Positions 1,485 to 15,568 of a DNA stretch of 64,000 bases are shown here, piece by piece. A program made the position numbers and the translations under genes. The stretch covers positions 9,995-73,994 of IMG/VR virus record IMGVR_UViG_3300024502_000013; one strand, written 5' to 3'. Positions within the stretch are counted from its first letter, which is position 1, and each line of letters opens with the position of its first letter. A model generated the notes under the pieces. The model did no database searches. It saw nothing but the letters and a program-made list of their open reading frames with translations, and was not told the DNA's origin. The stretch is from a virus.

Positions 1485-2303
1485 ATGGAAATTTCAATTA
1501 AAAAAGAAGAATTATCACAAAAGAGTATTTTCGTTGCAACACCAATGTATGGTGGCATGAATCATGGCCTCTATGCAAAGGCTTGTTTGGATTTGCAGGC
1601 TCTATGTATGCAATATGGAGTTAAAGTCAAATTTTCATTTCTTTTCAATGAATCTTTGATTACAAGAGCCAGAAACTATCTTGTGGATGAATTCTTACAT
1701 CGTTCAGATTGCACACATCTTTTATTCCTAGATTCAGATATTCACTTTGATCCTAGAGATGTGATTGCACTACTTGCTTTAGATAAAGATGTTATTGGTG
1801 GTCCTTATCCCAAGAAAGCCATCAAGTGGTCATCCGTAAAGAAAGCAATTCAAAAGAATCCTGACATTGACCCCAATCAACTTGCGGCTGTTACAGGTGA
1901 TTATGTTTTTAACCCTGTTAAGGGTACACAACAATTCAGTGTAACTGAACCACTTACTGTATTGGAAATTGGTACAGGTTTTATGCTTGTGAAGCGTGAA
2001 GTCTTTAACAAGATGGAGAAGGCATACCCAATGATTCGTTATCGTCCTGACCATGTTGGACAGGCACACTTTGACGGTTCACGTTATATCCATGCGTTCT
2101 TTGATACAGTCATCGACACAAAAGACTCTATCACTGGTGGTGGTTCCGACCGTTATCTAAGTGAAGATTATATGTTCTGTCAAATGTGGCGTAAGATTGG
2201 CGGAGAAATCTATCTATGTCCTTGGATGCGTACAGACCATATCGGCACATACCATTTCCGTGGTGATATGCCTGCTGTTGCAAACTTTGTGGGAGAAATG
2301 TGA
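1485..2303 (+). CDS. GT-A fold glycosyltransferase-like protein conserved in T4-like phages
   Basis: ATPMYGG, ESLITRARN, LFLDSD (DxD), GTGFML, SEDY motifs. Confidence 0.7.
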   Translation: MEISIKKEELSQKSIFVATPMYGGMNHGLYAKACLDLQALCMQYGVKVKFSFLFNESLITRARNYLVDEFLHRSDCTHLLFLDSDIHFDPRDVIALLALDKDVIGGPYPKKAIKWSSVKKAIQKNPDIDPNQLAAVTGDYVFNPVKGTQQFSVTEPLTVLEIGTGFMLVKREVFNKMEKAYPMIRYRPDHVGQAHFDGSRYIHAFFDTVIDTKDSITGGGSDRYLSEDYMFCQMWRKIGGEIYLCPWMRTDHIGTYHFRGDMPAVANFVGEM

Positions 2304-2626
2304 TGGGTGAAGGCCGTAAATTTGATGGAGGTAAATCAGAATACGGTCTTTTGCCACCACTTGCACTAGAAGAAACTGTAAAAGTCCTAACTTTTGGTGC
2401 CCAAAAATACGAAAGAGATAACTGGAAAAAAGTACCTGATTCAAAACGCAGATACTTTGATGCATTGCAAAGACATATTTGGGCATGGAAAAGAGGTGAA
2501 CAAATTGACCCTGAATCCGGTCTACATCACCTGGCACATGCGATGTGCTGCTTGATGTTTTTATACGAACATGATATAATGTATTCTGTTGATAATGATG
2601 GAGATGTGAATGAAACTATCGAATGA
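2300..2626 (+). CDS. dATP/dGTP diphosphohydrolase-domain protein (DUF5664-like)
   Basis: KFDGGK..LLP..GAQKY..NW..DPESGLHHLAHA. Confidence 0.75.
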   Translation: MMGEGRKFDGGKSEYGLLPPLALEETVKVLTFGAQKYERDNWKKVPDSKRRYFDALQRHIWAWKRGEQIDPESGLHHLAHAMCCLMFLYEHDIMYSVDNDGDVNETIE

Positions 2627-3284
2627 AACCTTGAATGTACTTAAGAACTTTGCCGGAATTAATTCTGGTCTAGAGTTTAAAACTGGTAACAAGATTACCA
2701 CAATTTCTTCCACGAAAACTGTTTTGGCAAAAGCCACATTGAATGACAATTTTCCACAAGATTTTTGTATCTATGACTTGAATCAGTTTTTGTCTGTACA
2801 TTCCCTTGGCAAAGATACTGAACTGGACTTTGATAGCAACAATGTTATCTTTAAGTCTGGTCGTTCTAAGACCAAGTATAGAATGACGGCCAAGAACATG
2901 ATTGTTTCTCCTCCAGATAAAGAGTTGAAACTTCCTTCTGTTGATGGATCATTTAAATTAAATGAAGAAGATTTGGCACAAGCCTTGAAAAATGCATCTG
3001 TCCTACAGTCACCAAACATTGCATTTGAATCTGACGGCAACAAAGTGTCCGTAACGGTATTCAATGCAAAGGACGACTCTGCACACACAAACACAATTGA
3101 AATTGGTGACGCACAAAACGAAAAGAGATTCAAGGCAGTGTTTCTGACCGAAAATTTCAAAATGATTTCTTCAACCTACAATGTTGATATCTCTAAAGCC
3201 GGACTTGCACACTTTACAAACCAAGCTGGCGATTTGGAATATTACATTGCTATTGAAGCAAAAGATTCTAAATTTGGAGATTAA
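2610..3284 (+). CDS. 45: DNA polymerase sliding clamp gp45
   Basis: MKLSNETLNVLKNFAGIN..FCIYDLNQFL, C-terminal YYIAIE; synteny with 44/62. Confidence 0.95.
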   Translation: MKLSNETLNVLKNFAGINSGLEFKTGNKITTISSTKTVLAKATLNDNFPQDFCIYDLNQFLSVHSLGKDTELDFDSNNVIFKSGRSKTKYRMTAKNMIVSPPDKELKLPSVDGSFKLNEEDLAQALKNASVLQSPNIAFESDGNKVSVTVFNAKDDSAHTNTIEIGDAQNEKRFKAVFLTENFKMISSTYNVDISKAGLAHFTNQAGDLEYYIAIEAKDSKFGD

Positions 3285-4126: not shown

Positions 4127-5059
4127 ATGAGCGAACACATGTTGTGGGTGGAGAAGTATCGTCCCCAAACAATTGAAGAATGTATTCTGAATGACAACCT
4201 GAAAAAGACATTTCAGGAATTCGTCAACAAAAAAGAAATCCCTAACCTTTTACTTTGCGGTACCGCAGGTGTCGGTAAGACAACTGTGGCTCGTGCATTG
4301 TGTAATGAAATTGGTTGCGACTATATCATCATTAACGGTTCTGATGAGAACGGTGTCGATGCGGTTCGTAACAAGATTAAGAACTATGCGTCCTCCATGT
4401 CACTAACTGGTGGACGCAAGGTTATTATCCTTGATGAAGCAGACTATCTAACACCAAACGCACAAGCAATCCTACGTGCAGGTATTGAAGAATTCGCATC
4501 GAATTGTTCTTTCATCTTTACCTGTAACTTTAAGAATCGTATCATTGACCCACTACATTCTCGTTGTACGGTCATTGATTTCAAAGCCAACGGATCTAAA
4601 GCCAAGATGGCAACACAATTCTTTAAACGTGTTGAGAACATTCTAAAAGAAGAAGATATCAAATATGATAAAGAAGTTGTGGCTGCGGTCATCACCAAAC
4701 ACTTTCCAGATAATCGTCGTATTCTAAATGAACTACAACGATACAGTGCAAGTGGAGTCATCGACAAAGGCATTCTTGCTGCCGTTTCTGATGTACAACT
4801 TGGTGAACTAACCAAGGCATTGGCCAGTAAAGACTTTGCATCGGCTCGTAAATGGGTGACACAGAACCTAGATAACGACCCTGCAAGAATCTTCCGTAGT
4901 TTGTATGATACATTGTATGAACAACTAAAAGCTGGTTCTGTACCACAATTGGTTCTCATCCTTGCAAAGTATCAATATCAAGCCGCATTTGTTGCAGACC
5001 ATGAAATCAATCTCATGGCCTGTTTGACCGAGATTATGGTGGAGTGTGAATTCAAATGA
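4127..5059 (+). CDS. 44: clamp loader large subunit gp44
   Basis: WVEKYRP, GTAGVGKTT, LDEAD, SRC motifs. Confidence 0.97.
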   Translation: MSEHMLWVEKYRPQTIEECILNDNLKKTFQEFVNKKEIPNLLLCGTAGVGKTTVARALCNEIGCDYIIINGSDENGVDAVRNKIKNYASSMSLTGGRKVIILDEADYLTPNAQAILRAGIEEFASNCSFIFTCNFKNRIIDPLHSRCTVIDFKANGSKAKMATQFFKRVENILKEEDIKYDKEVVAAVITKHFPDNRRILNELQRYSASGVIDKGILAAVSDVQLGELTKALASKDFASARKWVTQNLDNDPARIFRSLYDTLYEQLKAGSVPQLVLILAKYQYQAAFVADHEINLMACLTEIMVECEFK

Positions 5060-5430
5060 CGCCGTTCGACTATGTTAATTTGGTGATGCACACCAAGAAA
5101 CAAGACGGTGAGTTGGATTATGTTGACTATGCACCGTTCATCGTAAATAGGTCCTTGTCTTATCATCTAGACTGCATACCTTACGCACAGGACATGAACC
5201 TATGGCCTGGACTGGACAAAGATATGCAGTTCCAGTACCTAATAAATAGTATCAGGCCTATGAAACGGAAGTTTGCTCCGTGGCAGAAAGCCAGTAAAGA
5301 CAAGGATATTGAGTGTGTCAAAAGATATTTTGGTTATTCTGACCAGAAAGCAATCGAAGCACTTCGTATACTTACAGATGAACAAATCGCTGAGATAAGA
5401 AAAAAAACAGACAAAGGCGGAGTGAAATGA
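5056..5430 (+). CDS. 62: clamp loader small subunit gp62
   Basis: YAPFIVNRSLS..YFGYS..KA; follows gp44. Confidence 0.9.
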   Translation: MTPFDYVNLVMHTKKQDGELDYVDYAPFIVNRSLSYHLDCIPYAQDMNLWPGLDKDMQFQYLINSIRPMKRKFAPWQKASKDKDIECVKRYFGYSDQKAIEALRILTDEQIAEIRKKTDKGGVK

Positions 5431-5834
5431 TTGATGTTAAGGATTTAGTAGAAGTTACATTGAAGGAACAAGATGATTTCCTAAAGGTCAGAGAGACACT
5501 TACCAGAATTGGTGTAGCTTCAAAGAAAGATAAAACACTATTTCAAAGTTGCCACATTCTCCACAAACGTGGACAATATTATGTGGTACACTTCAAAGAA
5601 CTATTTGCATTAGATGGTAAGCCAACCGACATTACCGAAAATGACTTGGCTCGGAGAAATGCGATTATTAATTTGTTGGAAGATTGGGGTCTATTAAAAA
5701 TTGTGGACAAAGACAAAACGGCCACACCAGAACCTATTTTCCTATCACAGATTAAGATTCTTTCTCATAAAGAGAAGAATGAATGGCAGTTGACACCCAA
5801 GTACAATATTGGTAAAAAACCACAAAATACTTGA
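5427..5834 (+). CDS. regA: translational repressor RegA
   Basis: DFLKVRETLTRIG..QSCHILHKRGQYYVVHFKELF. Confidence 0.97.
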   Translation: MIDVKDLVEVTLKEQDDFLKVRETLTRIGVASKKDKTLFQSCHILHKRGQYYVVHFKELFALDGKPTDITENDLARRNAIINLLEDWGLLKIVDKDKTATPEPIFLSQIKILSHKEKNEWQLTPKYNIGKKPQNT

Positions 5835-7337: not shown

Positions 7338-7871
7338 ATGAAAACAGTTGGTGATAAATTAGAAGCATTTGCCGTAACAGGCATCAATCCTGGTAAAGAT
7401 GATTTTTTTACTATTACAGAAAAATCATTTGAGGGCAAATGGAAAGTGATTGTATATTATCCAAAAGATTTTACATTCGTTTGTCCTACAGAGATTGTTG
7501 CATATGATAAGTTGGCACAAGACTTTGAGGACCGTGATGCAGTTCTTTTGACTGGCAGTACAGATAATGAATTCTGTAAATTGGCTTGGCAAAATGCACA
7601 TGAAGATTTGAAGAAAATCAAACACATTCAATTTGCTGACACTCAGCGTGGTGATTTGAGTTTGATTGAACAGTTGGGTGTATTCTATGCACCTGCTGGT
7701 GCTGCTCTTCGTGCAACATTCATTGTTGATCCTAATAACGAAATTCAACATGTCACTGTGAACAACCTCAACGTTGGTCGTTCTCCAGAAGAAACCTTGC
7801 GTGTATTGGATGCATTGCAAACTGGTGAATTGTGTGCATGTAACCGTAAAGTTGGTGGGGAGACACTATAA
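7338..7871 (+). CDS. ahpC: peroxiredoxin AhpC
   Basis: YPKDFTFVCPTE, ALRATFIVDP, GRS..E, resolving Cys. Confidence 0.95.
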   Translation: MKTVGDKLEAFAVTGINPGKDDFFTITEKSFEGKWKVIVYYPKDFTFVCPTEIVAYDKLAQDFEDRDAVLLTGSTDNEFCKLAWQNAHEDLKKIKHIQFADTQRGDLSLIEQLGVFYAPAGAALRATFIVDPNNEIQHVTVNNLNVGRSPEETLRVLDALQTGELCACNRKVGGETL

Positions 7872-9600: not shown

Positions 9601-9661
9601 TTGCCAAAATCTTTGGTTCTGGTATAATACAAAACTTGTTCTTTAAAAATTTGTAGAGTCA
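9601..9661 (+). promoter_or_regulatory. promoter with boxA-like leader (copy 1)
   Basis: TTGCCA-16-TATAAT with TGn extension, then ACTTGTTCTTTAAAAATTTGTAGAGTCA. Confidence 0.75.
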
Positions 9662-9746: not shown

Positions 9747-9868
9747 TATAAAAACACTTTGAGTGACTACAGCGGATAAACAGCAACTTGCAAATGTCGA
9801 CCAATGCAAGAACCTGCCGTGAAGTAGGGTCGCCGTGGATTCAAGTACCGCAGAGTGTTTCTATATGG
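9744..9868 (+). ncRNA. structured spacer RNA closed by an 18-bp stem
   Basis: CCATATAAAAACACTTTG / CAGAGTGTTTCTATATGG enclosing several hairpins. Confidence 0.5.
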
Positions 9869-9958
9869 AAGTGTGGCAGAGTCCGGTTTATTGCAGCAGT
9901 CTTGAAAACTGCCGGTCGTGCAAACGGCCCGTGAGTTCGAATCTCACCGCTTCCACCA
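9867..9958 (+). tRNA. tRNA-Ser(TGA)
   Basis: Long variable arm, loop CTTGAAA, CCA. Confidence 0.93.
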
Positions 9959-9962
9959 TTTT

Positions 9963-10083
9963 TAGGATACTTACAGCAAAAAATATTTCGCCTTCTAAGC
10001 GAGAGGTTGTTGGTTCGAGTCCAACTTTTTCCACTAGGGAAAAATAGCGCAATTGGTAGCGCACTAAAAAGAGTATCCTGTTG
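9963..10083 (+). ncRNA. CAGCAA-scaffold RNA A carrying a circularly permuted tRNA-Arg(TCT)
   Basis: Stem AGGATACTT/GAGTATCCT, ACAGCAA; cargo order is anticodon arm, T arm, acceptor stem, D arm. Confidence 0.8.
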
Positions 10084-10102
10084 TTTAAATTAAGGAGGAT
10101 GT

Positions 10103-10618
10103 ATGCCTAGTGTATTTCTTGTAAGTGATACGCACTTTGGTCACGCTGGCGTATGTCGCTTTATGCGTGATGATGGTGTAACAAAACTCCGTCCGTGGGA
10201 TAATCCTGACGAGATGGATGAAGAAATGGTCAAGAGGTGGAACGAAACTGTGAAGCCAAAGGACAAGGTTTACCACTTAGGTGATGTAGTGATTAACAGA
10301 AAGGCTCTGTCAATCATGCATCGTTTGAATGGTGACAAGGTTTTGATTAAGGGCAACCACGATATCTTTAAGTTAGAGGATTACACTCAACACTTTAGAG
10401 ATATCCGTGCTTACCATGTGATGGATAAAATTATGCTGAGTCACATTCCTGTGCATCCAGACAGCAAGGGTAGATTCCGTGGCAACATTCACGGACATAC
10501 TCATGCGAATAAGTTAGATGATCCATGGTATCAGTGCGTGTGTGTTGAACAAACGGACTTTAGACCAATTTTGTTTGAAGAAGTTCGTGCAAGGTTTGGA
10601 GAGTGGGCAGGACGGTAA
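10103..10618 (+). CDS. calcineurin-like metallophosphoesterase
   Basis: SDTHFGH, HLGD, GNHD, SH.P, HGHTH. Confidence 0.92.
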   Translation: MPSVFLVSDTHFGHAGVCRFMRDDGVTKLRPWDNPDEMDEEMVKRWNETVKPKDKVYHLGDVVINRKALSIMHRLNGDKVLIKGNHDIFKLEDYTQHFRDIRAYHVMDKIMLSHIPVHPDSKGRFRGNIHGHTHANKLDDPWYQCVCVEQTDFRPILFEEVRARFGEWAGR

Positions 10619-12147: not shown

Positions 12148-12213
12148 TAGGATAGTTCCAGCAACAATAAAAGCATTCAACTTGTAATTGAAAACGCAAA
12201 ACCTATCCTGTTG
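12148..12213 (+). ncRNA. CAGCAA-scaffold RNA B carrying a Thr(TGT) anticodon stem-loop
   Basis: AGGATAG/CTATCCT, CCAGCAA, TTCAA-CTTGTAA-TTGAA, CCTGTTG. Confidence 0.75.
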
Positions 12214-12218
12214 TTTAT

Positions 12219-12310: not shown

Positions 12311-12787
12311 ATGAGAAATTTCGACGCTAATGAAGTAAAAGAATTCCTTGCAAATCAAGGACCTGATACCCGTGTATACTTGGGTGCCGACTCTGAAAGA
12401 GTAAGAGTTAATGGCGTATGGTATGCTGACTATGCTTTGGCTGTCGTTATTCACATTGATGGTCGCCATGGTTGTAAAATCTTCGGTTATGTTGACCGTG
12501 AATTAGATTACGACCACAAGAAAAGTAAACCTGCTATGCGTCTGATGACAGAAGTATATAAAGTATCTGAATTGTTTCAAGAATTACAAGAAGTGTTGGA
12601 AGATTTTCATGTTGAAGTTCATTTGGACCTAAACAAGAATGATGAATTCGGTTCTTCTTGTGTTGTGCAACAAGCGATTGGTTATATCAAAGGTACATGT
12701 AATGTTACACCAATGGTAAAACCAGATGCACCAGCTGCATCGTTTTGTGCCGACCGTTTGAAACGTATTCTTGCAGAACAGGAATAA
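12311..12787 (+). CDS. RNase H-like YkuK/DUF458 family protein
   Basis: YLGADS, RLMTEV..S, EVHLDLN, VKPDAPAASFCAD. Confidence 0.8.
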   Translation: MRNFDANEVKEFLANQGPDTRVYLGADSERVRVNGVWYADYALAVVIHIDGRHGCKIFGYVDRELDYDHKKSKPAMRLMTEVYKVSELFQELQEVLEDFHVEVHLDLNKNDEFGSSCVVQQAIGYIKGTCNVTPMVKPDAPAASFCADRLKRILAEQE

Positions 12788-12873: not shown

Positions 12874-13119
12874 ATGGAAGTAAAACATACTGTTGATACT
12901 CGTGGTGAATATTGTCCAATACCTATGATTAGCACACTCAAGGTTCTCAATCTTATTGAAATAGGAGAAAGAATTGAGGTGTATGCTTCAGATGAATTGT
13001 ATGAGAAACACCTAGGTGAATTAGTTGATGAAGGTGTTTGTAAAGTCATTCACCAAAATGAAGTAGGTTTTACCTCTCATTTTATTCTAGAAAAAACTGC
13101 ATCGTTAGCTCAGCGGTAG
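12874..13119 (+). CDS. TusA/SirA-like sulfur carrier
   Basis: VDTRGEYCPIP (CPxP), IEVYASD. Confidence 0.8.
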   Translation: MEVKHTVDTRGEYCPIPMISTLKVLNLIEIGERIEVYASDELYEKHLGELVDEGVCKVIHQNEVGFTSHFILEKTASLAQR

Positions 13120-13574: not shown

Positions 13575-13649
13575 CTGGCGTTAGTATAATGGATAATACA
13601 GCTGCCTTCTAAGCAGTCAATAGAGGTTCGATTCCTCTACGCCGGACCA
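13575..13649 (+). tRNA. tRNA-Arg(TCT)
   Basis: Loop CTTCTAA, CCA. Confidence 0.93.
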
Positions 13650-13904: not shown

Positions 13905-14057
13905 TAGGTAAGGTTCAGCAAGAACGTCTAAAGTGAAAGTTGGTAAACTATGGTAAACATTGGAGCTTGACGGCTTTGAAGGTGTTTATTGAAATAGAAC
14001 TAACAAGGAGAGTTTCGATTTCTCTCTGTAATCAAAAAGTAGGAAACTTACCTGTTG
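13905..14057 (+). ncRNA. CAGCAA-scaffold RNA C with a long structured cargo including a T-arm-like hairpin
   Basis: AGGTAAG/CTTACCT, TTCAGCAA, GAGAG-T-TTCGATT-T-CTCTC, CCTGTTG. Confidence 0.7.
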
Positions 14058-14061
14058 TTTT

Positions 14062-14122
14062 TAGGTTACTTTCAGCAATTTAAAAAACTTTTATGTCAAA
14101 AAAGCCAAAAGCGTAACCTGTT
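14062..14122 (+). ncRNA. CAGCAA-scaffold RNA D carrying a GTC (Asp) anticodon-like hairpin
   Basis: AGGTTAC/GTAACCT, TTCAGCAA, CTTTT-ATGTCAA-AAAAG, CCTGTT. Confidence 0.7.
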
Positions 14123-14140
14123 ATTTTGAAAGGAAATGTT

Positions 14141-15568
14141 ATGAACACTTTTGTGAATGCCGTTATGAATCAAGAAGCTCGTACCACTAATGGTATGAAG
14201 GCTCGTAAGTCTACCGCCAGTGCGGTCGTGGACTTGTTCTATAACATTGGTGCAAGCCGTGGCAAGGACATTGTTCCTGCTTTTACCGCTGCATTGGTTG
14301 AGAACCGTGAGTTGGCACTCCGTGTAGCTGCATGGGCTCGTGATGCTCGTGGTGGTGCAGGTGAACGTGAATCGTTCCGTAACATCCTCCGTTATTTGGA
14401 AAAGACTGATGTTGAAGCCGCAAAGGCACTCTTGGCTAAAGTTCCTGAACTTGGTCGTTGGGATGACATTTTTGTTTTCCAAACCGATGTGATGAAGTCT
14501 ATGGCTTATACCATGTTGGGTGACGCTTTGCGTTCTCGTAATGGTTTGGCTGCAAAATGGACTCCACGCAAAGGACCTATTGCGGCAGAAATTCGTGCGT
14601 TCTACGGAATGTCACCAAAATTCTACCGTAAGTCCTTGGTTGAATTGACCAAGGTTGTTGAAACCCAAATGTGTTCTAAAGAATGGGATGCCATTAACTT
14701 TAGTCATGTTCCTTCCGTAGCAGCTGCTCGTTATAAGAAGGCCTTCAACCGTAATACTCCAAAGTATGCGGAATATGTTGCCGAACTTATGAAAGATCCT
14801 AAGGATCGTACCATGGAAGTGAAGGTCAATGCAGGTGCGGTTTATCCGTATGATGTATTGAAGGGTCGTATCAGCCACTACTTGCCTTTTGACAAGACCG
14901 AATTGGACTTGATTCAAAAGCAATGGGAAGCATTGCCAAACTATGTAGGTGACGCAAGTATACTACCTCTAGTTGACGTTTCTGGTTCTATGTCCTGCCA
15001 TGCAGGTACGAACACCAAATTGTCTTGTTTAGAAGTTGCAGTGTCTCTTGGCCTGTATCTTGCAGACAAGAACAAGGGTAAGTTTAAGGATACCTTCCTG
15101 ACTTTCTCTGGTAGTCCAGAACTGATGCACCTAAAAGGCAACATCAACCAAAAGATTGACCAAATGGTTAAATCTAATTGGGACATGAACACTAACCTGA
15201 ACAAGGCATTTGAAAAAATCCTTGACACTGCGGTGAAGGGTGGTGTTCCACAAGAAGAAATGCCAGCGATGGTGTTGATTCTGTCTGACATGCAGTTTGA
15301 CGGTTGCGTTGAACATGATGACAGTGCAATTGAAATGATTGCACGTAAGTACCAAGAAGCTGGATACGAACTTCCAAAGGTTGTATTCTGGAACTTGAAT
15401 GCTTCATATGGCAACAGCCCTGTGAAGTTTGACAAGTCTGGTACTGCTCTGGTATCTGGATTCTCACCAGCAATCGTGAAACCTTTGCTGAGTGGAGACC
15501 TAGATGGTTTCACACCAGAGTCCGTGATGCTTAAAACCATCATGGATGAACGTTACAAAGTAATTTGA
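14141..15568 (+). CDS. DUF2828-type TROVE/Ro60-like helical protein with C-terminal vWA (MIDAS) domain
   Basis: RDARGGAGER, GRWDD, AAKWTPR in the N-terminal region; VDVSGSM, NTNL, ILSDMQFD, VFWNL in the vWA region; AAAGGA RBS. Confidence 0.8.
   Translation: MNTFVNAVMNQEARTTNGMKARKSTASAVVDLFYNIGASRGKDIVPAFTAALVENRELALRVAAWARDARGGAGERESFRNILRYLEKTDVEAAKALLAKVPELGRWDDIFVFQTDVMKSMAYTMLGDALRSRNGLAAKWTPRKGPIAAEIRAFYGMSPKFYRKSLVELTKVVETQMCSKEWDAINFSHVPSVAAARYKKAFNRNTPKYAEYVAELMKDPKDRTMEVKVNAGAVYPYDVLKGRISHYLPFDKTELDLIQKQWEALPNYVGDASILPLVDVSGSMSCHAGTNTKLSCLEVAVSLGLYLADKNKGKFKDTFLTFSGSPELMHLKGNINQKIDQMVKSNWDMNTNLNKAFEKILDTAVKGGVPQEEMPAMVLILSDMQFDGCVEHDDSAIEMIARKYQEAGYELPKVVFWNLNASYGNSPVKFDKSGTALVSGFSPAIVKPLLSGDLDGFTPESVMLKTIMDERYKVI

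What the first reader, a model, noticed from the sequence alone, without database searches (positions are those of the whole stretch)
9987..10063. Complete circularly permuted tRNA-Arg(UCU) in a phage
Seen, 5' to 3': anticodon arm TTCGC-CTTCTAA-GCGAG (9987-10003), variable loop AGGTT, T arm GTTGG-TTCGAGT-CCAAC (10009-10025), acceptor 3' strand TTTTTCC, linker ACTAG (discriminator plus CTA where CCA would be), acceptor 5' strand GGAAAAA (10038-10044), TA, D arm GCGC-AATTGGTA-GCGC, A. All arms have canonical length. The chain is opened at position 26/27 and the acceptor end is sealed by a loop, so it cannot be charged unless re-ligated and processed. A normal tRNA-Arg(TCT) with the identical anticodon loop exists at 13575, so this copy is not needed for decoding. 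Known: permuted tRNA genes are described in some algae and an archaeon; I am not aware of phage examples. Inference: an uncharged L-shaped decoy.
Basis: seen in the sequence. Interest (0 to 1): 0.9.

Follow-up and report, generated by a model that had tools for sequence, protein, structure and literature searches.

The report
Permuted tRNA mimic on Ro60-like handle RNA
The "permuted tRNA" is real and conserved, but it is most likely not a decoding tRNA: it is the tRNA-shaped part of a small RNA whose conserved handle probably docks it onto the phage's Ro60-like ring protein, a pairing not found in Rfam or in the papers searched.

Summary
Observation confirmed. Window 9987-10063 holds an anticodon-like arm, T arm, loop-closed 7-bp acceptor and D arm in permuted order, all of canonical size. 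At least 73 related phage contigs carry the element; 95% of pair cells are paired and all five helices covary. The anticodon-like loop is not conserved, so it is not specifically tRNA-Arg.

Four RNAs in the window share the handle with different cargo, all on the tRNA strand. Two abut ORF 14141-15565 (Pfam DUF2828+DUF7788, no TROVE match), whose AlphaFold model matches only Ro60 structures over its full length. Handle and gene sit together in Salmonella, Aeromonas, Campylobacter, Listeria, Synechococcus and Mycobacterium phages. A complete relative lacking the gene lacks the handles.

Best reading (0.7): a Y-RNA-like tRNA mimic of the YrlA type that partners the Ro60-like protein. A decoy role is possible but untested. 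A tandem-tRNA remnant is excluded; a re-ligated decoding tRNA is unlikely.

This scan has noted the same handle/Ro60-like pairing before on other DNA (29 notes, at least 27 genomes). I found it in neither Rfam nor the papers searched.

The parts
9601..9628 (+). Promoter-like site (TTGCCA-16-TATAAT with TG) upstream of tRNA-Gln, tRNA-Ser and the element
   Evidence: 11 of 12 consensus matches. No terminator-like site lies between it and the element. A consensus match only.
9867..9958 (+). tRNA-Ser(tga) with encoded CCA, ending 1-2 nt before the element's U-run
   Evidence: The element directly follows a tRNA 3' end in the window and in relatives.
9960..9963 (+). 5' U-run; U9963 can pair with G10080 (U-G in 66 of 66 sequences)
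   Evidence: pair 4-209.
9964..9970 (+). Handle stem, 5' strand AGGATAC
   Evidence: The stem covaries (AU/UA/CG/GC) at 5 of its 10 modelled pairs.
9971..9979 (+). Handle motif: 3 nt (TTA) followed by CAGCAA (9974-9979), predicted unpaired
   Evidence: Invariant in alignments A1 and A2. NCAGCAA in 62 and NCAGCAU in 4 of 66 sequences. Also present in the Salmonella, Aeromonas, Campylobacter, Listeria, cyanophage and mycobacteriophage elements.
9980..9986 (+). A/U-rich 5' linker
9987..10003 (+). Anticodon-arm mimic TTCGC-CTTCTAA-GCGAG (5-bp stem, 7-nt loop)
   Evidence: All 5 pairs covary. The loop sequence varies across the family.
10004..10008 (+). Variable-loop equivalent AGGTT
10009..10025 (+). 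T arm GTTGG-TTCGAGT-CCAAC
   Evidence: T loop is UUCGA/UUCAA type in 66 of 66 sequences and 100% of cells are paired.
10026..10044 (+). Acceptor stem closed into a hairpin: TTTTTCC, loop ACTAG, GGAAAAA (7 bp)
   Evidence: All 7 pairs covary. The closing loop is not conserved in sequence or length, ranging from 2 to 15 nt.
10045..10062 (+). U8-A9 equivalent (TA) and D arm GCGC-AATTGGTA-GCGC
   Evidence: Position 8 is U in 65 of 66 sequences. D loops are of the A-R-(N)-GG-U-A type.
10063..10072 (+). A26 equivalent and A-rich 3' linker CTAAAAAGA
10073..10086 (+). Handle stem 3' strand GTATCCT and tail GTTGTTT
   Evidence: G-U-U after the stem is the conserved part of the tail.
12149..12216 (+). 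Second handle RNA (AGGATAG/CTATCCT). Cargo is the anticodon-arm mimic TTCAA-CTTGTAA-TTGAA. It fills the spacer between tRNA-Ile and tRNA-Trp.
13906..14060 (+). Third handle RNA (AGGTAAG/CTTACCT) with about 134 nt between the stem strands, of unknown fold
14063..14126 (+). Fourth handle RNA (AGGTTAC/GTAACCT, tail GTTATTT), ending 14 nt before the Ro60-like gene's ATG
   Evidence: Rfam Dicty_Class_I_RNA 34.7 bits over the full model.
14141..15568 (+). Ro60-fold protein gene (475 aa, Pfam DUF2828 + DUF7788, vWA domain with MIDAS residues)
   Evidence: Pfam. AlphaFold2 pLDDT 94.4, pTM 0.92. Foldseek top 12 hits are all Ro60 over the full length, TM 0.35-0.65 (11 of 12 at 0.46 or higher), E 7e-8 to 6e-6, followed by vWA-only hits. 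Invariant D279, S281, S283, T351 and D383.
13575..13649 (+). Ordinary tRNA-Arg(tct) with the same anticodon loop CTTCTAA and an A20-type D loop
10103..10618 (+). Calcineurin-like metallophosphoesterase gene directly downstream. It served as the synteny anchor for finding relatives.

Best explanation
Window 9960-10086 encodes a small non-coding RNA of about 125 nt. It is probably co-transcribed with the tRNA cluster, though its ends have not been mapped. It has two modules.

1. A conserved handle: a 7-bp stem joining the 5' and 3' ends, followed on the 5' side by three nucleotides and unpaired CAGCAA, and on the 3' side by G-U-U.
2. A cargo that imitates a whole tRNA in circularly permuted order: anticodon-like arm, variable loop, T arm, acceptor stem sealed by a loop, U8, D arm. 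The chain ends leave the body at position 26/27 through A-rich linkers.

The handle is most likely the docking site for the phage's Ro60-fold ring protein (14141-15565). That would make this a Y-RNA-like particle of the YrlA type, in which the tRNA-shaped body is held out to engage something that recognises tRNAs.

Shown here by computation:
- The structure is real, conserved and covarying.
- The handle is shared by four RNAs in the window and by many in relatives, always on the strand of the Ro60-like gene.
- The protein has the Ro60 fold.
- Handle and gene co-occur in six unrelated phage groups, and the handles are missing from a complete relative that lacks the gene.

Inferred:
- The protein binds the handle.
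- The body folds into an L-shape.
- The particle acts on or competes with tRNA-binding factors. The candidates are a bait or decoy for host anticodon-directed nucleases, or an adaptor for tRNA quality control or repair. I cannot separate these two.

It is most likely not a decoding tRNA.
For: Structure:
- The MFE fold gives all five helices, z = -3.2.
- RNAalifold on 8 homologs finds 26 pairs, 13 with compensatory changes.
- On 66 distinct homologs, 95.2% of cells are paired against 68% in shuffles (0 of 500 reach it) and 36-45% when slid. Covariation is seen in the handle (5 of 10 pairs), AC-like arm (5 of 5), T arm (3 of 5), closed acceptor (7 of 7) and D arm (3 of 4).
- tRNA tertiary-contact nucleotides are kept: U8, the GG of the D loop, the UUCGA/UUCAA T loop.

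Kinship with YrlA:
- Rfam YrlA aligns the T arm, closed acceptor, UA and D arm in register: 33.3 bits, E 5e-6 locally.
- Chen et al. 2014 (PMC4201824) describe this order and its location near Ro60 on the same strand.

Handle family:
- Four handles in the window, all on the + strand, with different but complementary stems.
- 55 distinct handles in the first loci, with 17 stem variants, all complementary.

Protein:
- DUF2828 + DUF7788.
- AF2 pLDDT 94.4.
- Foldseek top 12 are all Ro60, including Thermus phage phiLo Ro60, over the full length.

Linkage:
- In 57 loci with the gene, 165 handles are on its strand and 0 on the other. 35 of 52 loci have one ending less than 200 nt upstream.
- The same handle lies beside the gene in Mycobacterium phage DirkDirk, where R1 (41.2 bits) and YrlA (39.8 bits) hit one spot.
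- It also lies beside the gene in Synechococcus phage BUCT-ZZ01, Salmonella Felixounavirus BPS17L1 with the same permuted body, Aeromonas LAh_9, Campylobacter PC14 and Listeria LMSP-25.
- Complete relative G001, which has the gene, has 6 handles against 0.6 expected. Complete relative G003, which lacks the gene but has 26 tRNAs, has only 2 background-level matches far from its tRNA cluster.

Expression context:
- Metatranscriptome contigs cover the element colinearly with its neighbours.
Against: - No binding data exist. The protein-RNA link is guilt by association, and within the window's own lineage conserved synteny alone could produce it.
- The element scores below Rfam's YrlA threshold (33.3 against 69 bits). 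The YrlA model also gives sub-threshold hits in 6 of 14 control genomes.
- The Ro60-binding motif of known Y RNAs (GNCGAAN0-1G, or CGAA) is absent; CAGCAA stands in its place.
- The protein is not detected by Pfam TROVE.
- The element itself lies 4 kb from the gene. It is the other handles that abut it.
- RNA-library contigs cannot prove transcription, ends or abundance.
- The absence test rests on a single complete genome without the gene.
- The function beyond 'partner RNA' is unsupported by any direct evidence.
Confidence: 0.7

Rival explanations
1. It is a working tRNA made in pieces. RNase P cuts the acceptor-closing loop before G10038. The upstream piece is trimmed and receives CCA. The two pieces, held together by the handle stem and tertiary contacts, form a chargeable split tRNA-Arg(UCU), possibly guarded by the Ro60-like protein.
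For: - The acceptor stem is 7 bp and stacks on a canonical T arm, which is the main RNase P determinant.
- M. smegmatis YrlA, which has a 7-bp acceptor, is cut by RNase P in vitro and is cleaved and CCA-tailed in vivo (PMC4201824).
- The anticodon-like loop is canonical (C32, U33, A37, A38).
- BUCT-ZZ01 has two tRNA-like genes with open, CCA-ended acceptors and what I read as the handle closed by a loop and inserted at 26/27. That is the exact circular permutation of this element.
- In relative G001, ARAGORN calls the normal-order framed cargo tRNA-Arg(tct).
Against: - The closing loop has no conserved sequence or length and no CCA.
- The anticodon-like loop changes freely among homologs, and the aligned loop is shorter than 7 nt (1-6 nt) in roughly a third of them.
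- The D loop is a generic GGUA type (U20). The A20 that is the main arginyl-tRNA synthetase identity element in E. coli (my knowledge) is present in the window's true tRNA-Arg but not here.
- A normal tRNA-Arg(UCU) is already encoded.
- No re-joined or rearranged form appears in four metatranscriptome assemblies, though contigs drop rare forms.
- The long A-rich linkers at 26/27 would sit at the tRNA core.
Confidence: 0.12
2. The handles are processing or stabilising cassettes of the tRNA operon: leader-trailer stems that direct or block host RNases. They have no dedicated protein partner, and the tRNA-like cargo is a by-product of tRNA gene turnover inside the cluster.
For: - Handles lie exactly between tRNAs. 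Number 2 fills the tRNA-Ile/tRNA-Trp spacer, and number 1 starts just after a CCA end.
- All are on the tRNA strand.
- In relatives a normal-order tRNA-like body sits between the handle halves like a pre-tRNA with paired leader and trailer.
Against: - The handle also occurs beside the Ro60-like gene in phages where it is not inside a tRNA array: DirkDirk and Aeromonas LAh_9.
- A complete relative keeps 26 tRNAs but has neither handles nor the gene.
- CAGCAA is conserved across phages of hosts as distant as Listeria, Mycobacterium, Campylobacter and cyanobacteria. That points to a phage-encoded reader rather than host RNases.
- The sealed acceptor and the permuted body are under purifying selection with covariation.
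Confidence: 0.1
3. It is a decaying remnant of two tandem tRNA genes: the 3' part of one and the 5' part of the next.
For: - Tandem tRNAs give the same arm order. Chen et al. warn that dimeric tRNAs can be false positives for YrlA.
- My model R1 also hit many tandem-tRNA junctions over positions 28-105.
Against: - The acceptor hairpin covaries at 7 of 7 pairs, which two unrelated tRNAs would not do.
- The enclosing handle is conserved and covaries.
- 73 full-length homologs keep the same boundaries.
- The same architecture occurs in a Salmonella phage and a mycobacteriophage.
Confidence: 0.01
4. It is a classical permuted tRNA gene, as in Cyanidioschyzon merolae. The transcript is circularised through a bulge-helix-bulge motif and reopened at the acceptor to give a normal linear tRNA.
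For: The 3' half precedes the 5' half, and all arms are of canonical size.
Against: - The termini form a plain 7-bp helix followed by unpaired CAGCAA. There is no 3-nt-bulge/4-bp-helix/3-nt-bulge motif.
- Bacteria and their phages are not known to have the splicing endonuclease (my knowledge).
- RtcB ligase is absent from this record and from three complete relatives.
- No joined 10063-to-9987 form appears in RNA contigs.
- The anticodon is not conserved.
Confidence: 0.03

Closest known systems
YrlA-type bacterial and phage Y RNAs bound by Ro60/Rsr (Rfam RF02553; Chen et al. 2014, PMC4201824)
   Same: - A 5'-3' terminal stem carries a conserved unpaired motif on its 5' side.
- It encloses a tRNA-like domain in the order (V arm), T arm, loop-closed acceptor stem, U-A, D arm.
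- The RNA is encoded near a Ro60-fold protein on the same strand.
- There are several paralogous RNAs per genome with one shared protein-binding module and different second modules.
- The 7-bp acceptor resembles that of M. smegmatis YrlA.
   Different: - The score is below Rfam's threshold (33.3 against 69 bits).
- The handle motif is CAGCAA after a 7-bp stem, not GNCGAAN0-1G.
- The partner is a DUF2828/DUF7788 protein that Pfam TROVE does not detect.
- The body includes a canonical 5-bp/7-nt anticodon-arm mimic, so the whole tRNA is imitated and the chain opens at 26/27. In YrlA the terminal stem takes the place of the anticodon stem.
- The same handle also carries bare anticodon-arm hairpins and normal-order tRNA bodies.
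Thermus phage phiLo Ro60 with Yrl1/Yrl2 (PMC12135203; PDB 9KOP, 9L5Y)
   Same: - A phage-encoded Ro60-fold protein has its partner RNAs encoded just upstream of its gene.
- 9KOP is the best Foldseek match of the window's protein.
- The RNAs have a 5'-3' stem flanking an internal loop with a short conserved motif.
   Different: - phiLo Ro60 is a TROVE-type protein, and its Yrl RNAs carry a CGAA motif. The passages I retrieved describe no tRNA-like domain for them.
- Sequence identity to the window's protein is about 15%.
Permuted tRNA genes of Cyanidioschyzon merolae and other algae, and split or permuted tRNAs of archaea
   Same: The 3' half of a tRNA is encoded upstream of the 5' half in one transcript, with the acceptor strands joined by a short linker.
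   Different: - Those genes give mature decoding tRNAs through a bulge-helix-bulge motif, the splicing endonuclease and a ligase.
- Here there is no such motif, the break is at 26/27, the anticodon is not conserved, and the ends are tied into a conserved handle.
Two-piece (permuted) tmRNA (Rfam RF04321)
   Same: It is a circularly permuted tRNA-like domain in bacteria and phages. One is encoded in the related cyanophage BUCT-ZZ01.
   Different: tmRNA keeps an open, chargeable acceptor end and carries a tag reading frame. It has no CAGCAA handle.
Class I RNAs of dictyostelid amoebae (Rfam RF01414; Kjellin et al. 2021, PMC7919456)
   Same: - A short covarying stem joins the 5' and 3' ends.
- A conserved motif lies next to the 5' strand. 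The Rfam consensus is CCUUACAGCAA; the window has CUUACAGCAA.
- The 3' end is CUGU and the interior is variable.
- The window's short handle RNA at 14064-14120 scores 34.7 bits over the full model.
   Different: - Class I RNAs are reported as unique to Dictyostelia, are 42-65 nt, have their own upstream promoter element, and their known binder is an RRM protein.
- The permuted-tRNA element is twice that length and scores only 16.3 bits.
- Whether the likeness reflects common descent is untested.

Membership tests
YrlA / bacterial Y RNA (RF02553) | tRNA-like domain in the order T arm, loop-closed acceptor stem, U-A, D arm | tested here: met
   The cmscan alignment places all three arms in register. 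The fold and covariation agree.
YrlA / bacterial Y RNA (RF02553) | Score at or above Rfam's gathering threshold (69 bits) | tested here: not met
   33.3 bits. The outer-stem part of the model is aligned with non-canonical pairs.
YrlA / bacterial Y RNA (RF02553) | GNCGAAN0-1G motif in the Ro60-binding module (Chen et al. 2014) | tested here: not met
   No such motif lies between the terminal stem and the body. CAGCAA is the conserved motif in that position.
YrlA / bacterial Y RNA (RF02553) | Encoded within about 4 kb of a Ro60 ortholog and on the same strand | tested here: met
   The gene for a Ro60-fold protein starts 4.05 kb downstream on the same strand. Two sister handle RNAs abut it. Caveat: the protein is a DUF2828 type, not a Pfam TROVE type.
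YrlA / bacterial Y RNA (RF02553) | Physically bound by the Ro60 protein | not testable with these tools
   Needs EMSA, RIP or a structure.
Ro60/TROVE proteins (for the neighbouring gene) | Helical-repeat ring followed by a vWA domain with MIDAS residues | tested here: met
   AF2 model pLDDT 94.4. Full-length Foldseek matches only to Ro60 structures. Invariant D-x-S-x-S, T and D in 105 homologs.
Ro60/TROVE proteins (for the neighbouring gene) | Match to Pfam TROVE (PF05731) | tested here: not met
   No match in the record, in five relatives, or in four distant homologs even at E <= 1. phmmer against PDB sequences finds nothing.
Permuted tRNA genes (Cyanidioschyzon type) | 3' half encoded upstream of 5' half, with the acceptor strands joined by a linker | tested here: met
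Permuted tRNA genes (Cyanidioschyzon type) | Bulge-helix-bulge motif formed by the transcript's ends for circularisation | tested here: not met
   The ends form a continuous 7-bp helix plus a U-G pair, flanked by unpaired CAGCAA and a U-rich tail.
Permuted tRNA genes (Cyanidioschyzon type) | A re-joined mature tRNA exists | tested here: inconclusive
   No 10063-to-9987 joint in contigs of four metatranscriptomes, but contigs drop rare forms.
Permuted tRNA genes (Cyanidioschyzon type) | Anticodon and identity elements conserved among orthologs | tested here: not met
   Loops are diverse and the D loop is generic. The window's true tRNA-Arg has a different D loop.
Ordinary tRNA gene | Recognised as a tRNA by ARAGORN or the Rfam tRNA model with all four arms in order | tested here: not met
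   ARAGORN makes no call here. Rfam tRNA gives 31.2 bits only for a reading without a D arm, at 9975-10033.
Dictyostelid Class I RNA (RF01414) | Short covarying 5'-3' stem, conserved motif beside its 5' strand, 3' CUGU | tested here: met
   The stem covaries. CUUACAGCAA aligns to the consensus. The 3' end reads CCUGUU. Definition taken from PMC7919456.
Dictyostelid Class I RNA (RF01414) | Score at or above the gathering threshold (41.5 bits) and length 42-65 nt | tested here: not met
   16.3 bits and 127 nt for this element. Its short sister RNA at 14064-14120 reaches 34.7 bits at 57 nt.

The most novel reading that the evidence does not exclude
DUF2828-type Ro60-like ring proteins and CAGCAA-handle RNAs form a widespread, uncatalogued phage ribonucleoprotein. 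It displays interchangeable tRNA bodies and bare anticodon arms as baits or adaptors against host factors that target tRNAs, such as anticodon nucleases. The same parts occur in three circular permutations: handle outside with a normal-order body, handle outside with a permuted body as here, and handle inserted at 26/27 of a CCA-ended tRNA. The handle may share ancestry with the unexplained Class I RNAs of social amoebae.
Probability: 0.3. Interest if true: 0.9.

Novelty: new variant of a known kind. Interest (0 to 1): 0.75.

Why it matters
Ro60 and its Y RNAs are a conserved RNA-surveillance particle, and what the tRNA-like domain of bacterial Y RNAs does remains an open question.

- **A second branch of the particle.** This protein family is invisible to the TROVE model, yet it is present in 696 of 50,697 cultured phage records. 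It comes with its own RNA handle.
- **More complete tRNA mimicry.** These RNAs imitate a whole tRNA, or only an anticodon arm, with many different "anticodons".
- **The question becomes testable.** The system occurs in easily handled phages (Felixounavirus on E. coli and Salmonella, and phages of Listeria, Aeromonas and mycobacteria). Protein-RNA binding, RNase P cleavage, charging and protection against anticodon nucleases can all be assayed directly.
- **A case study in RNA circular permutation.** Related phages carry normal-order and permuted bodies at one genomic position.
- **Annotation.** tRNA finders miss these elements, or in the normal-order form call them tRNAs.

Tried and rejected
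- **T-loop/acceptor/D-arm pattern scan.** It returned mostly ordinary tandem tRNAs, so I did not use it.
- **Exact AGGATAC...GTATCCTG within 20-50 nt.** No matches, because the cargo is longer than that.
- **blastn of the region against cultured phages.** Only the neighbouring tRNA-Ser matched.
- **Sequence route to Ro60.** phmmer of the protein against PDB sequences found nothing. Pfam TROVE found nothing in the record or in relatives. Only the structural route showed the Ro60 fold.
- **RtcB.** Absent from the record and from four relatives, three of them complete. A self-contained ligation pathway is therefore not supported in this lineage, although Listeria phage LMSP-25 has an RtcB gene about 1.3 kb downstream of its Ro-like gene.
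- **Pseudoknot between AGCAA and UUGUU of the tail.** Rejected. The tail beyond G-U-U is not conserved in the family or in distant phages.
- **Pairing of GCAAAAA (9976-9982) with the TTTTTCC acceptor strand.** This is the Rfam tRNA reading without a D arm. Rejected, because relatives with other acceptor sequences do not keep it.
- **Contig breaks at 10038 and 10067 as an RNase P cleavage signal.** Rejected. The two contigs overlap by exactly 30 nt (k-1), which marks an assembly-graph branch.
- **Higher summed depth over 9914-10070.** Not used as evidence. The bin includes half of tRNA-Ser, and contig depths cannot rank parts.
- **Sources not held.** The supplementary tables of Chen et al. 2014 and the Ro60 review PMC10870794.
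- **Protein atlas.** It returned only viral DUF2828 clusters, so it gives no information on amoebae.
Full report
**1. The observation**

- a 5-bp/7-nt hairpin, TTCGC-CTTCTAA-GCGAG
- AGGTT
- a T arm, GTTGG-TTCGAGT-CCAAC
- TTTTTCC, a 5-nt loop ACTAG, then GGAAAAA
- TA
- a D arm, GCGC-AATTGGTA-GCGC
- A

ARAGORN finds 27 ordinary tRNAs in the window but nothing here. Rfam's tRNA model gives only a weak 31.2-bit reading without a D arm, at 9975-10033. The normal tRNA-Arg(tct) at 13575 has the same loop CTTCTAA on a different stem. The energy is -36 kcal/mol, z = -3.2, and none of 200 shuffles folds as well.

**2. It is conserved and covaries**

I used the downstream phosphoesterase gene as an anchor and fetched 80 related IMG/VR loci. 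Seven held full-length homologs at 70-81% identity. RNAalifold found the outer stem, T arm, closed acceptor and D arm by itself, with compensatory changes at 13 of 26 pairs.

I built a covariance model of the five-helix structure, R1. R1 then gave 73 full-length matches at E <= 1e-11.

On the 66 distinct sequences:

| Measure | Observed | Control |
|---|---|---|
| Pair cells paired | 95.2% | 68.0% in shuffles (0 of 500 reach the observed value); 36-45% when partners are slid |
| Cells changed on both sides | 506 | 154 expected |

All five helices covary, including 7 of 7 pairs in the sealed acceptor and 5 of 5 in the anticodon-like arm. The alignment was fitted to the model, which favours the structure. 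The independent MAFFT/RNAalifold result and the slid controls point the same way.

This excludes a decaying tandem-tRNA remnant.

**3. What is and is not conserved**

The body keeps the nucleotides that build a tRNA's L-shape:
- U8 in 65 of 66 sequences
- D loops of the A-R-(N)-GG-U-A type
- T loops of the UUCGA/UUCAA type in all 66

The anticodon-like loop is not conserved. CUUCUAA occurs in 6 sequences, alongside CUGAAAA, CUGUAAA, CUUGAAA, CUGAUAA, CUGGAAA, CUUAUAA and others; in roughly a third of the sequences the aligned loop is shorter than 7 nt.

The loop sealing the acceptor varies from 2 to 15 nt with no CCA-like consensus. The D loop is generic and does not follow the "anticodon". 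The window's true tRNA-Arg has GGA (A20, the main ArgRS identity element in E. coli by my knowledge), while the mimic has GGU.

So the element is a generic tRNA body with an exchangeable anticodon-arm mimic. It is not a tRNA-Arg gene.

**4. The handle**

R1 also hit short, AT-rich stretches spanning its whole length. Reading them showed that the outer stem and its flanks form a repeated frame: UUUU-AGG-NNNN, three nucleotides, CAGCAA, cargo, N'N'N'N'-CCU, then G-U-U.

The window has four such frames, all on the + strand inside the tRNA cluster:

| Frame | Stem | Cargo |
|---|---|---|
| 9964-10079 | AGGATAC/GTATCCT | Permuted tRNA body |
| 12149-12209 | AGGATAG/CTATCCT | Hairpin TTCAA-CTTGTAA-TTGAA |
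| 13906-14053 | AGGTAAG/CTTACCT | About 134 nt between the stem strands, unknown fold |
| 14063-14119 | AGGTTAC/GTAACCT | About 43 nt between the stem strands, A-rich |

Across the first set of loci there are 55 distinct frames, all on the + strand of their loci (the strand of the phosphoesterase gene), with 17 different but always complementary stems.

Cargo falls into classes:
- single 5-bp/7-nt hairpins with CU-NNN-AA loops
- normal-order tRNA-like bodies
- permuted bodies
- longer unknown inserts

In the complete relative G001, the element at the window's position upstream of the phosphoesterase gene carries a normal-order body with the same CUUCUAA loop. ARAGORN calls it tRNA-Arg(tct). 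That genome also has a standalone tRNA-Arg(tct) and a separate permuted element.

In cyanophage BUCT-ZZ01, two 113-nt tRNA-like genes have open, CCA-ended acceptors and a 37-nt insert at 26/27 that reads stem'-GUAA-stem-AAUU-CUGCAA. I read this as the handle closed by a loop. That is the exact circular permutation of the window's element. This parse was done by eye, and the anticodon arms of those two RNAs are imperfect.

**5. The neighbour is a Ro60-fold protein**

Frame 4 ends 14 nt before the ATG of a 475-aa ORF (14141-15565). The ORF matches Pfam DUF2828 and DUF7788. It does not match TROVE or any PDB sequence.

With 104 diverse homologs, AlphaFold2 gave pLDDT 94.4 and pTM 0.92. The 12 best Foldseek matches in the PDB are all Ro60 over the full length:
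- Thermus phage phiLo Ro60 (9KOP, 9L5Y)
- Xenopus Ro (2I91, 1YVP, 1YVR)
- human Ro60
- Deinococcus Rsr

TM-scores are 0.35-0.65 (11 of 12 at 0.46 or higher) and E-values run from 7e-8 to 6e-6. Next come vWA-only matches at E > 4e-3. The MIDAS residues are invariant. Homologs occur in 696 cultured-phage records. Mycobacteriophage annotators call it "Ro-like RNA binding protein".

**6. Handle and protein go together**

- In the 57 fetched loci that contain the gene, all 165 handles are on its strand and none on the other. 155 lie upstream. 35 of 52 loci have one ending less than 200 nt before the start codon. Most of these loci are one lineage, so synteny could contribute.
- Mycobacterium phage DirkDirk (protein 35% identical): R1 (41.2 bits) and Rfam YrlA (39.8 bits) hit one spot about 100 nt downstream of the gene. 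It reads GGACUC-UAG-CAGCAA, T arm, 7-bp closed acceptor, D arm, GAGUCC-AGUU.
- BUCT-ZZ01 has three handles directly upstream of the gene.
- Salmonella Felixounavirus BPS17L1 has a permuted tRNA-like element (AGACCGU-UUA-CAGCAA...ACGGUCU-GGU) and a short handle downstream.
- Aeromonas LAh_9 has three short handles upstream.
- Campylobacter PC14 has two handles and Listeria LMSP-25 has one, all upstream. The Listeria locus also holds an RtcB ligase and a phosphohydrolase.
- Among complete relatives, G001 (gene present) has 6 handles against 0.6 expected from shuffles, clustered just upstream of the gene. G003 (gene absent, but with 26 tRNAs and the phosphoesterase) has only two wobble-containing matches on opposite strands, more than 40 kb from its tRNA cluster. 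This is a single contrast, but it goes the predicted way.

**7. Expression context**

A promoter-like site (TTGCCA-16-TATAAT with TG) lies at 9601-9628, upstream of tRNA-Gln, tRNA-Ser and the element. There is no terminator between them.

The region is held by 24 riverine metatranscriptome runs. Contigs from four of them cover the element colinearly. One 1,380-nt contig spans 9600-10932 without a difference. No re-joined 26/27 form appears.

These are assemblies from RNA libraries. They cannot prove transcription, ends or levels. The breaks at 10038 and 10067 are k-1 overlaps, not RNA ends.

**8. Comparison with what is known**

- **YrlA.** Rfam's best local match is YrlA (33.3 bits, E 5e-6). 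It aligns the T arm, closed acceptor, UA and D arm in register. Chen et al. 2014 define YrlA by this tRNA-like domain, a GNCGAAN0-1G motif in the Ro60-binding module, and a location within 4 kb of Ro60 on the same strand. They found it in 254 bacterial species and 22 phages, but searched only TROVE-annotated genomes. They also showed that M. smegmatis YrlA, with a 7-bp acceptor, is cut by RNase P in vitro and is cleaved and CCA-tailed in vivo.
- **Thermus phage phiLo.** Its Ro60 binds two upstream Y-like RNAs with a CGAA motif, together with host PNPase (PMC12135203).
- **Jumbo phages.** A survey treats TROVE proteins plus a tRNA-like partner as an RNA-repair platform (PMC7824862).
- **This element.** It shares the logic and the arm order of YrlA. 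It fails Rfam's threshold, has CAGCAA instead of the known motif, and partners a protein family outside TROVE. It also imitates the anticodon arm, so the chain opens at 26/27 rather than in the anticodon loop.
- **Literature.** I found no paper on DUF2828 function, on phage permuted tRNAs, or on this handle.

**9. Earlier notes of this scan**

The scan holds 29 notes in at least 27 genomes on the same pairing, and follow-up agents reached the same reading. I reached mine before reading them; they agree.

One of those notes pointed to Dictyostelium Class I RNAs. My own Rfam runs list RF01414 at 16.3 bits on this element, with CUUACAGCAA aligned to the consensus. On the short frame at 14064-14120 the score is 34.7 bits over the full model (threshold 41.5, E 2.9e-4).

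The published definition is 42-65 nt, a short covarying terminal stem, an 11-nt motif beside its 5' strand, and a 3' CUGU (PMC7919456). The short handle RNAs fit this closely. Whether that is shared ancestry is untested.

**10. Verdict**

The element is best explained as the tRNA-mimic cargo of a Y-RNA-like handle RNA that partners the phage's Ro60-fold protein (confidence 0.7).

| Claim | My estimate |
|---|---|
| It is a real structured RNA | About 0.97 |
| It does not decode | About 0.8 |
| Its role is specifically a decoy for anticodon nucleases | About 0.25 |

The split-tRNA rival (0.12) deserves a direct test. The 7-bp acceptor, the M. smegmatis precedent and the CCA-ended permuted forms in BUCT-ZZ01 all speak for it.

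Noticed in passing
L112 (Synechococcus phage BUCT-ZZ01, ON615601.1) 7581-7693 and 7711-7824: Two tRNA-like genes of about 113 nt have open, CCA-ended acceptor stems and a 37-nt insert between the D arm and the anticodon stem (position 26/27). The insert reads CAUUCU-GUAA-AGAAUG-AAUU-CUGCAA, which I take to be the handle closed by a loop. This is the circular permutation of the window's element. Rfam tRNA scores them 37.6 and 50.7 bits, and ARAGORN does not call them. Their anticodon stems have a bulged C.
   Followed up: partly
L112 1749-2167: The same cyanophage encodes a permuted (two-piece type) tmRNA: Rfam tmRNA_permuted 111.9 bits, ARAGORN tag peptide ANDETFSMALAA.
   Followed up: no
window 14064-14120 (also 9965-10080): The short handle RNA matches Rfam's Dictyostelium Class I RNA model over its full length at 34.7 bits (threshold 41.5). 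The handle motif CUUACAGCAA and the 3' CUGU equal the Class I consensus. Class I RNAs are published as unique to social amoebae and have no known function.
   Followed up: partly
G001 (complete relative, 168,911 bp) 82607-82712, equal to L081 2868-2973: At the position of the window's permuted element, this relative has a normal-order tRNA-Arg(tct)-like body, with no encoded CCA and an A-A mismatch in the acceptor, inside the same handle. The same genome also has a standalone tRNA-Arg(tct) at 89678 and a permuted element at 87038-87145.
   Followed up: partly
L012 2275-2371, L051 2880-2976, L063 1724-1820, L079 2497-2593, L034 2588-2685: A further cargo class: inside the handle sit a D-like hairpin, an anticodon-arm mimic (for example UUUGC-CUUUUAA-GCAAA) and a T arm, with no acceptor stem of their own. 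The 7-bp handle stem occupies the acceptor's place.
   Followed up: partly
L233 (Listeria phage LMSP-25) 5117-7061; L111 (DirkDirk) 2185-3081; L235 (Aeromonas LAh_9) 4552-5460: Neighbours of the Ro60-like gene recur across phage groups. The Listeria phage has an RtcB 'tRNA splicing ligase' and a metal-dependent phosphohydrolase. The mycobacteriophage and the Aeromonas phage have band-7/SPFH proteins.
   Followed up: no
window 10103-10618, 12311-12787, 12874-13119: Protein genes interleaved with the tRNAs: a calcineurin-like phosphoesterase, an RNaseH_like (PF04308) protein and a TusA-like sulfur carrier. The window also carries HSP20, AhpC, CMD and dCMP deaminase genes upstream.
   Followed up: no
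window 9961 (run X4, loose end): In one metatranscriptome, a contig matching 9961-10983 continues upstream into different sequence containing CTATTCTGTTGTTTT, which looks like the 3' end of another handle. A related strain therefore probably has another handle RNA in place of tRNA-Ser at this spot.
   Followed up: no
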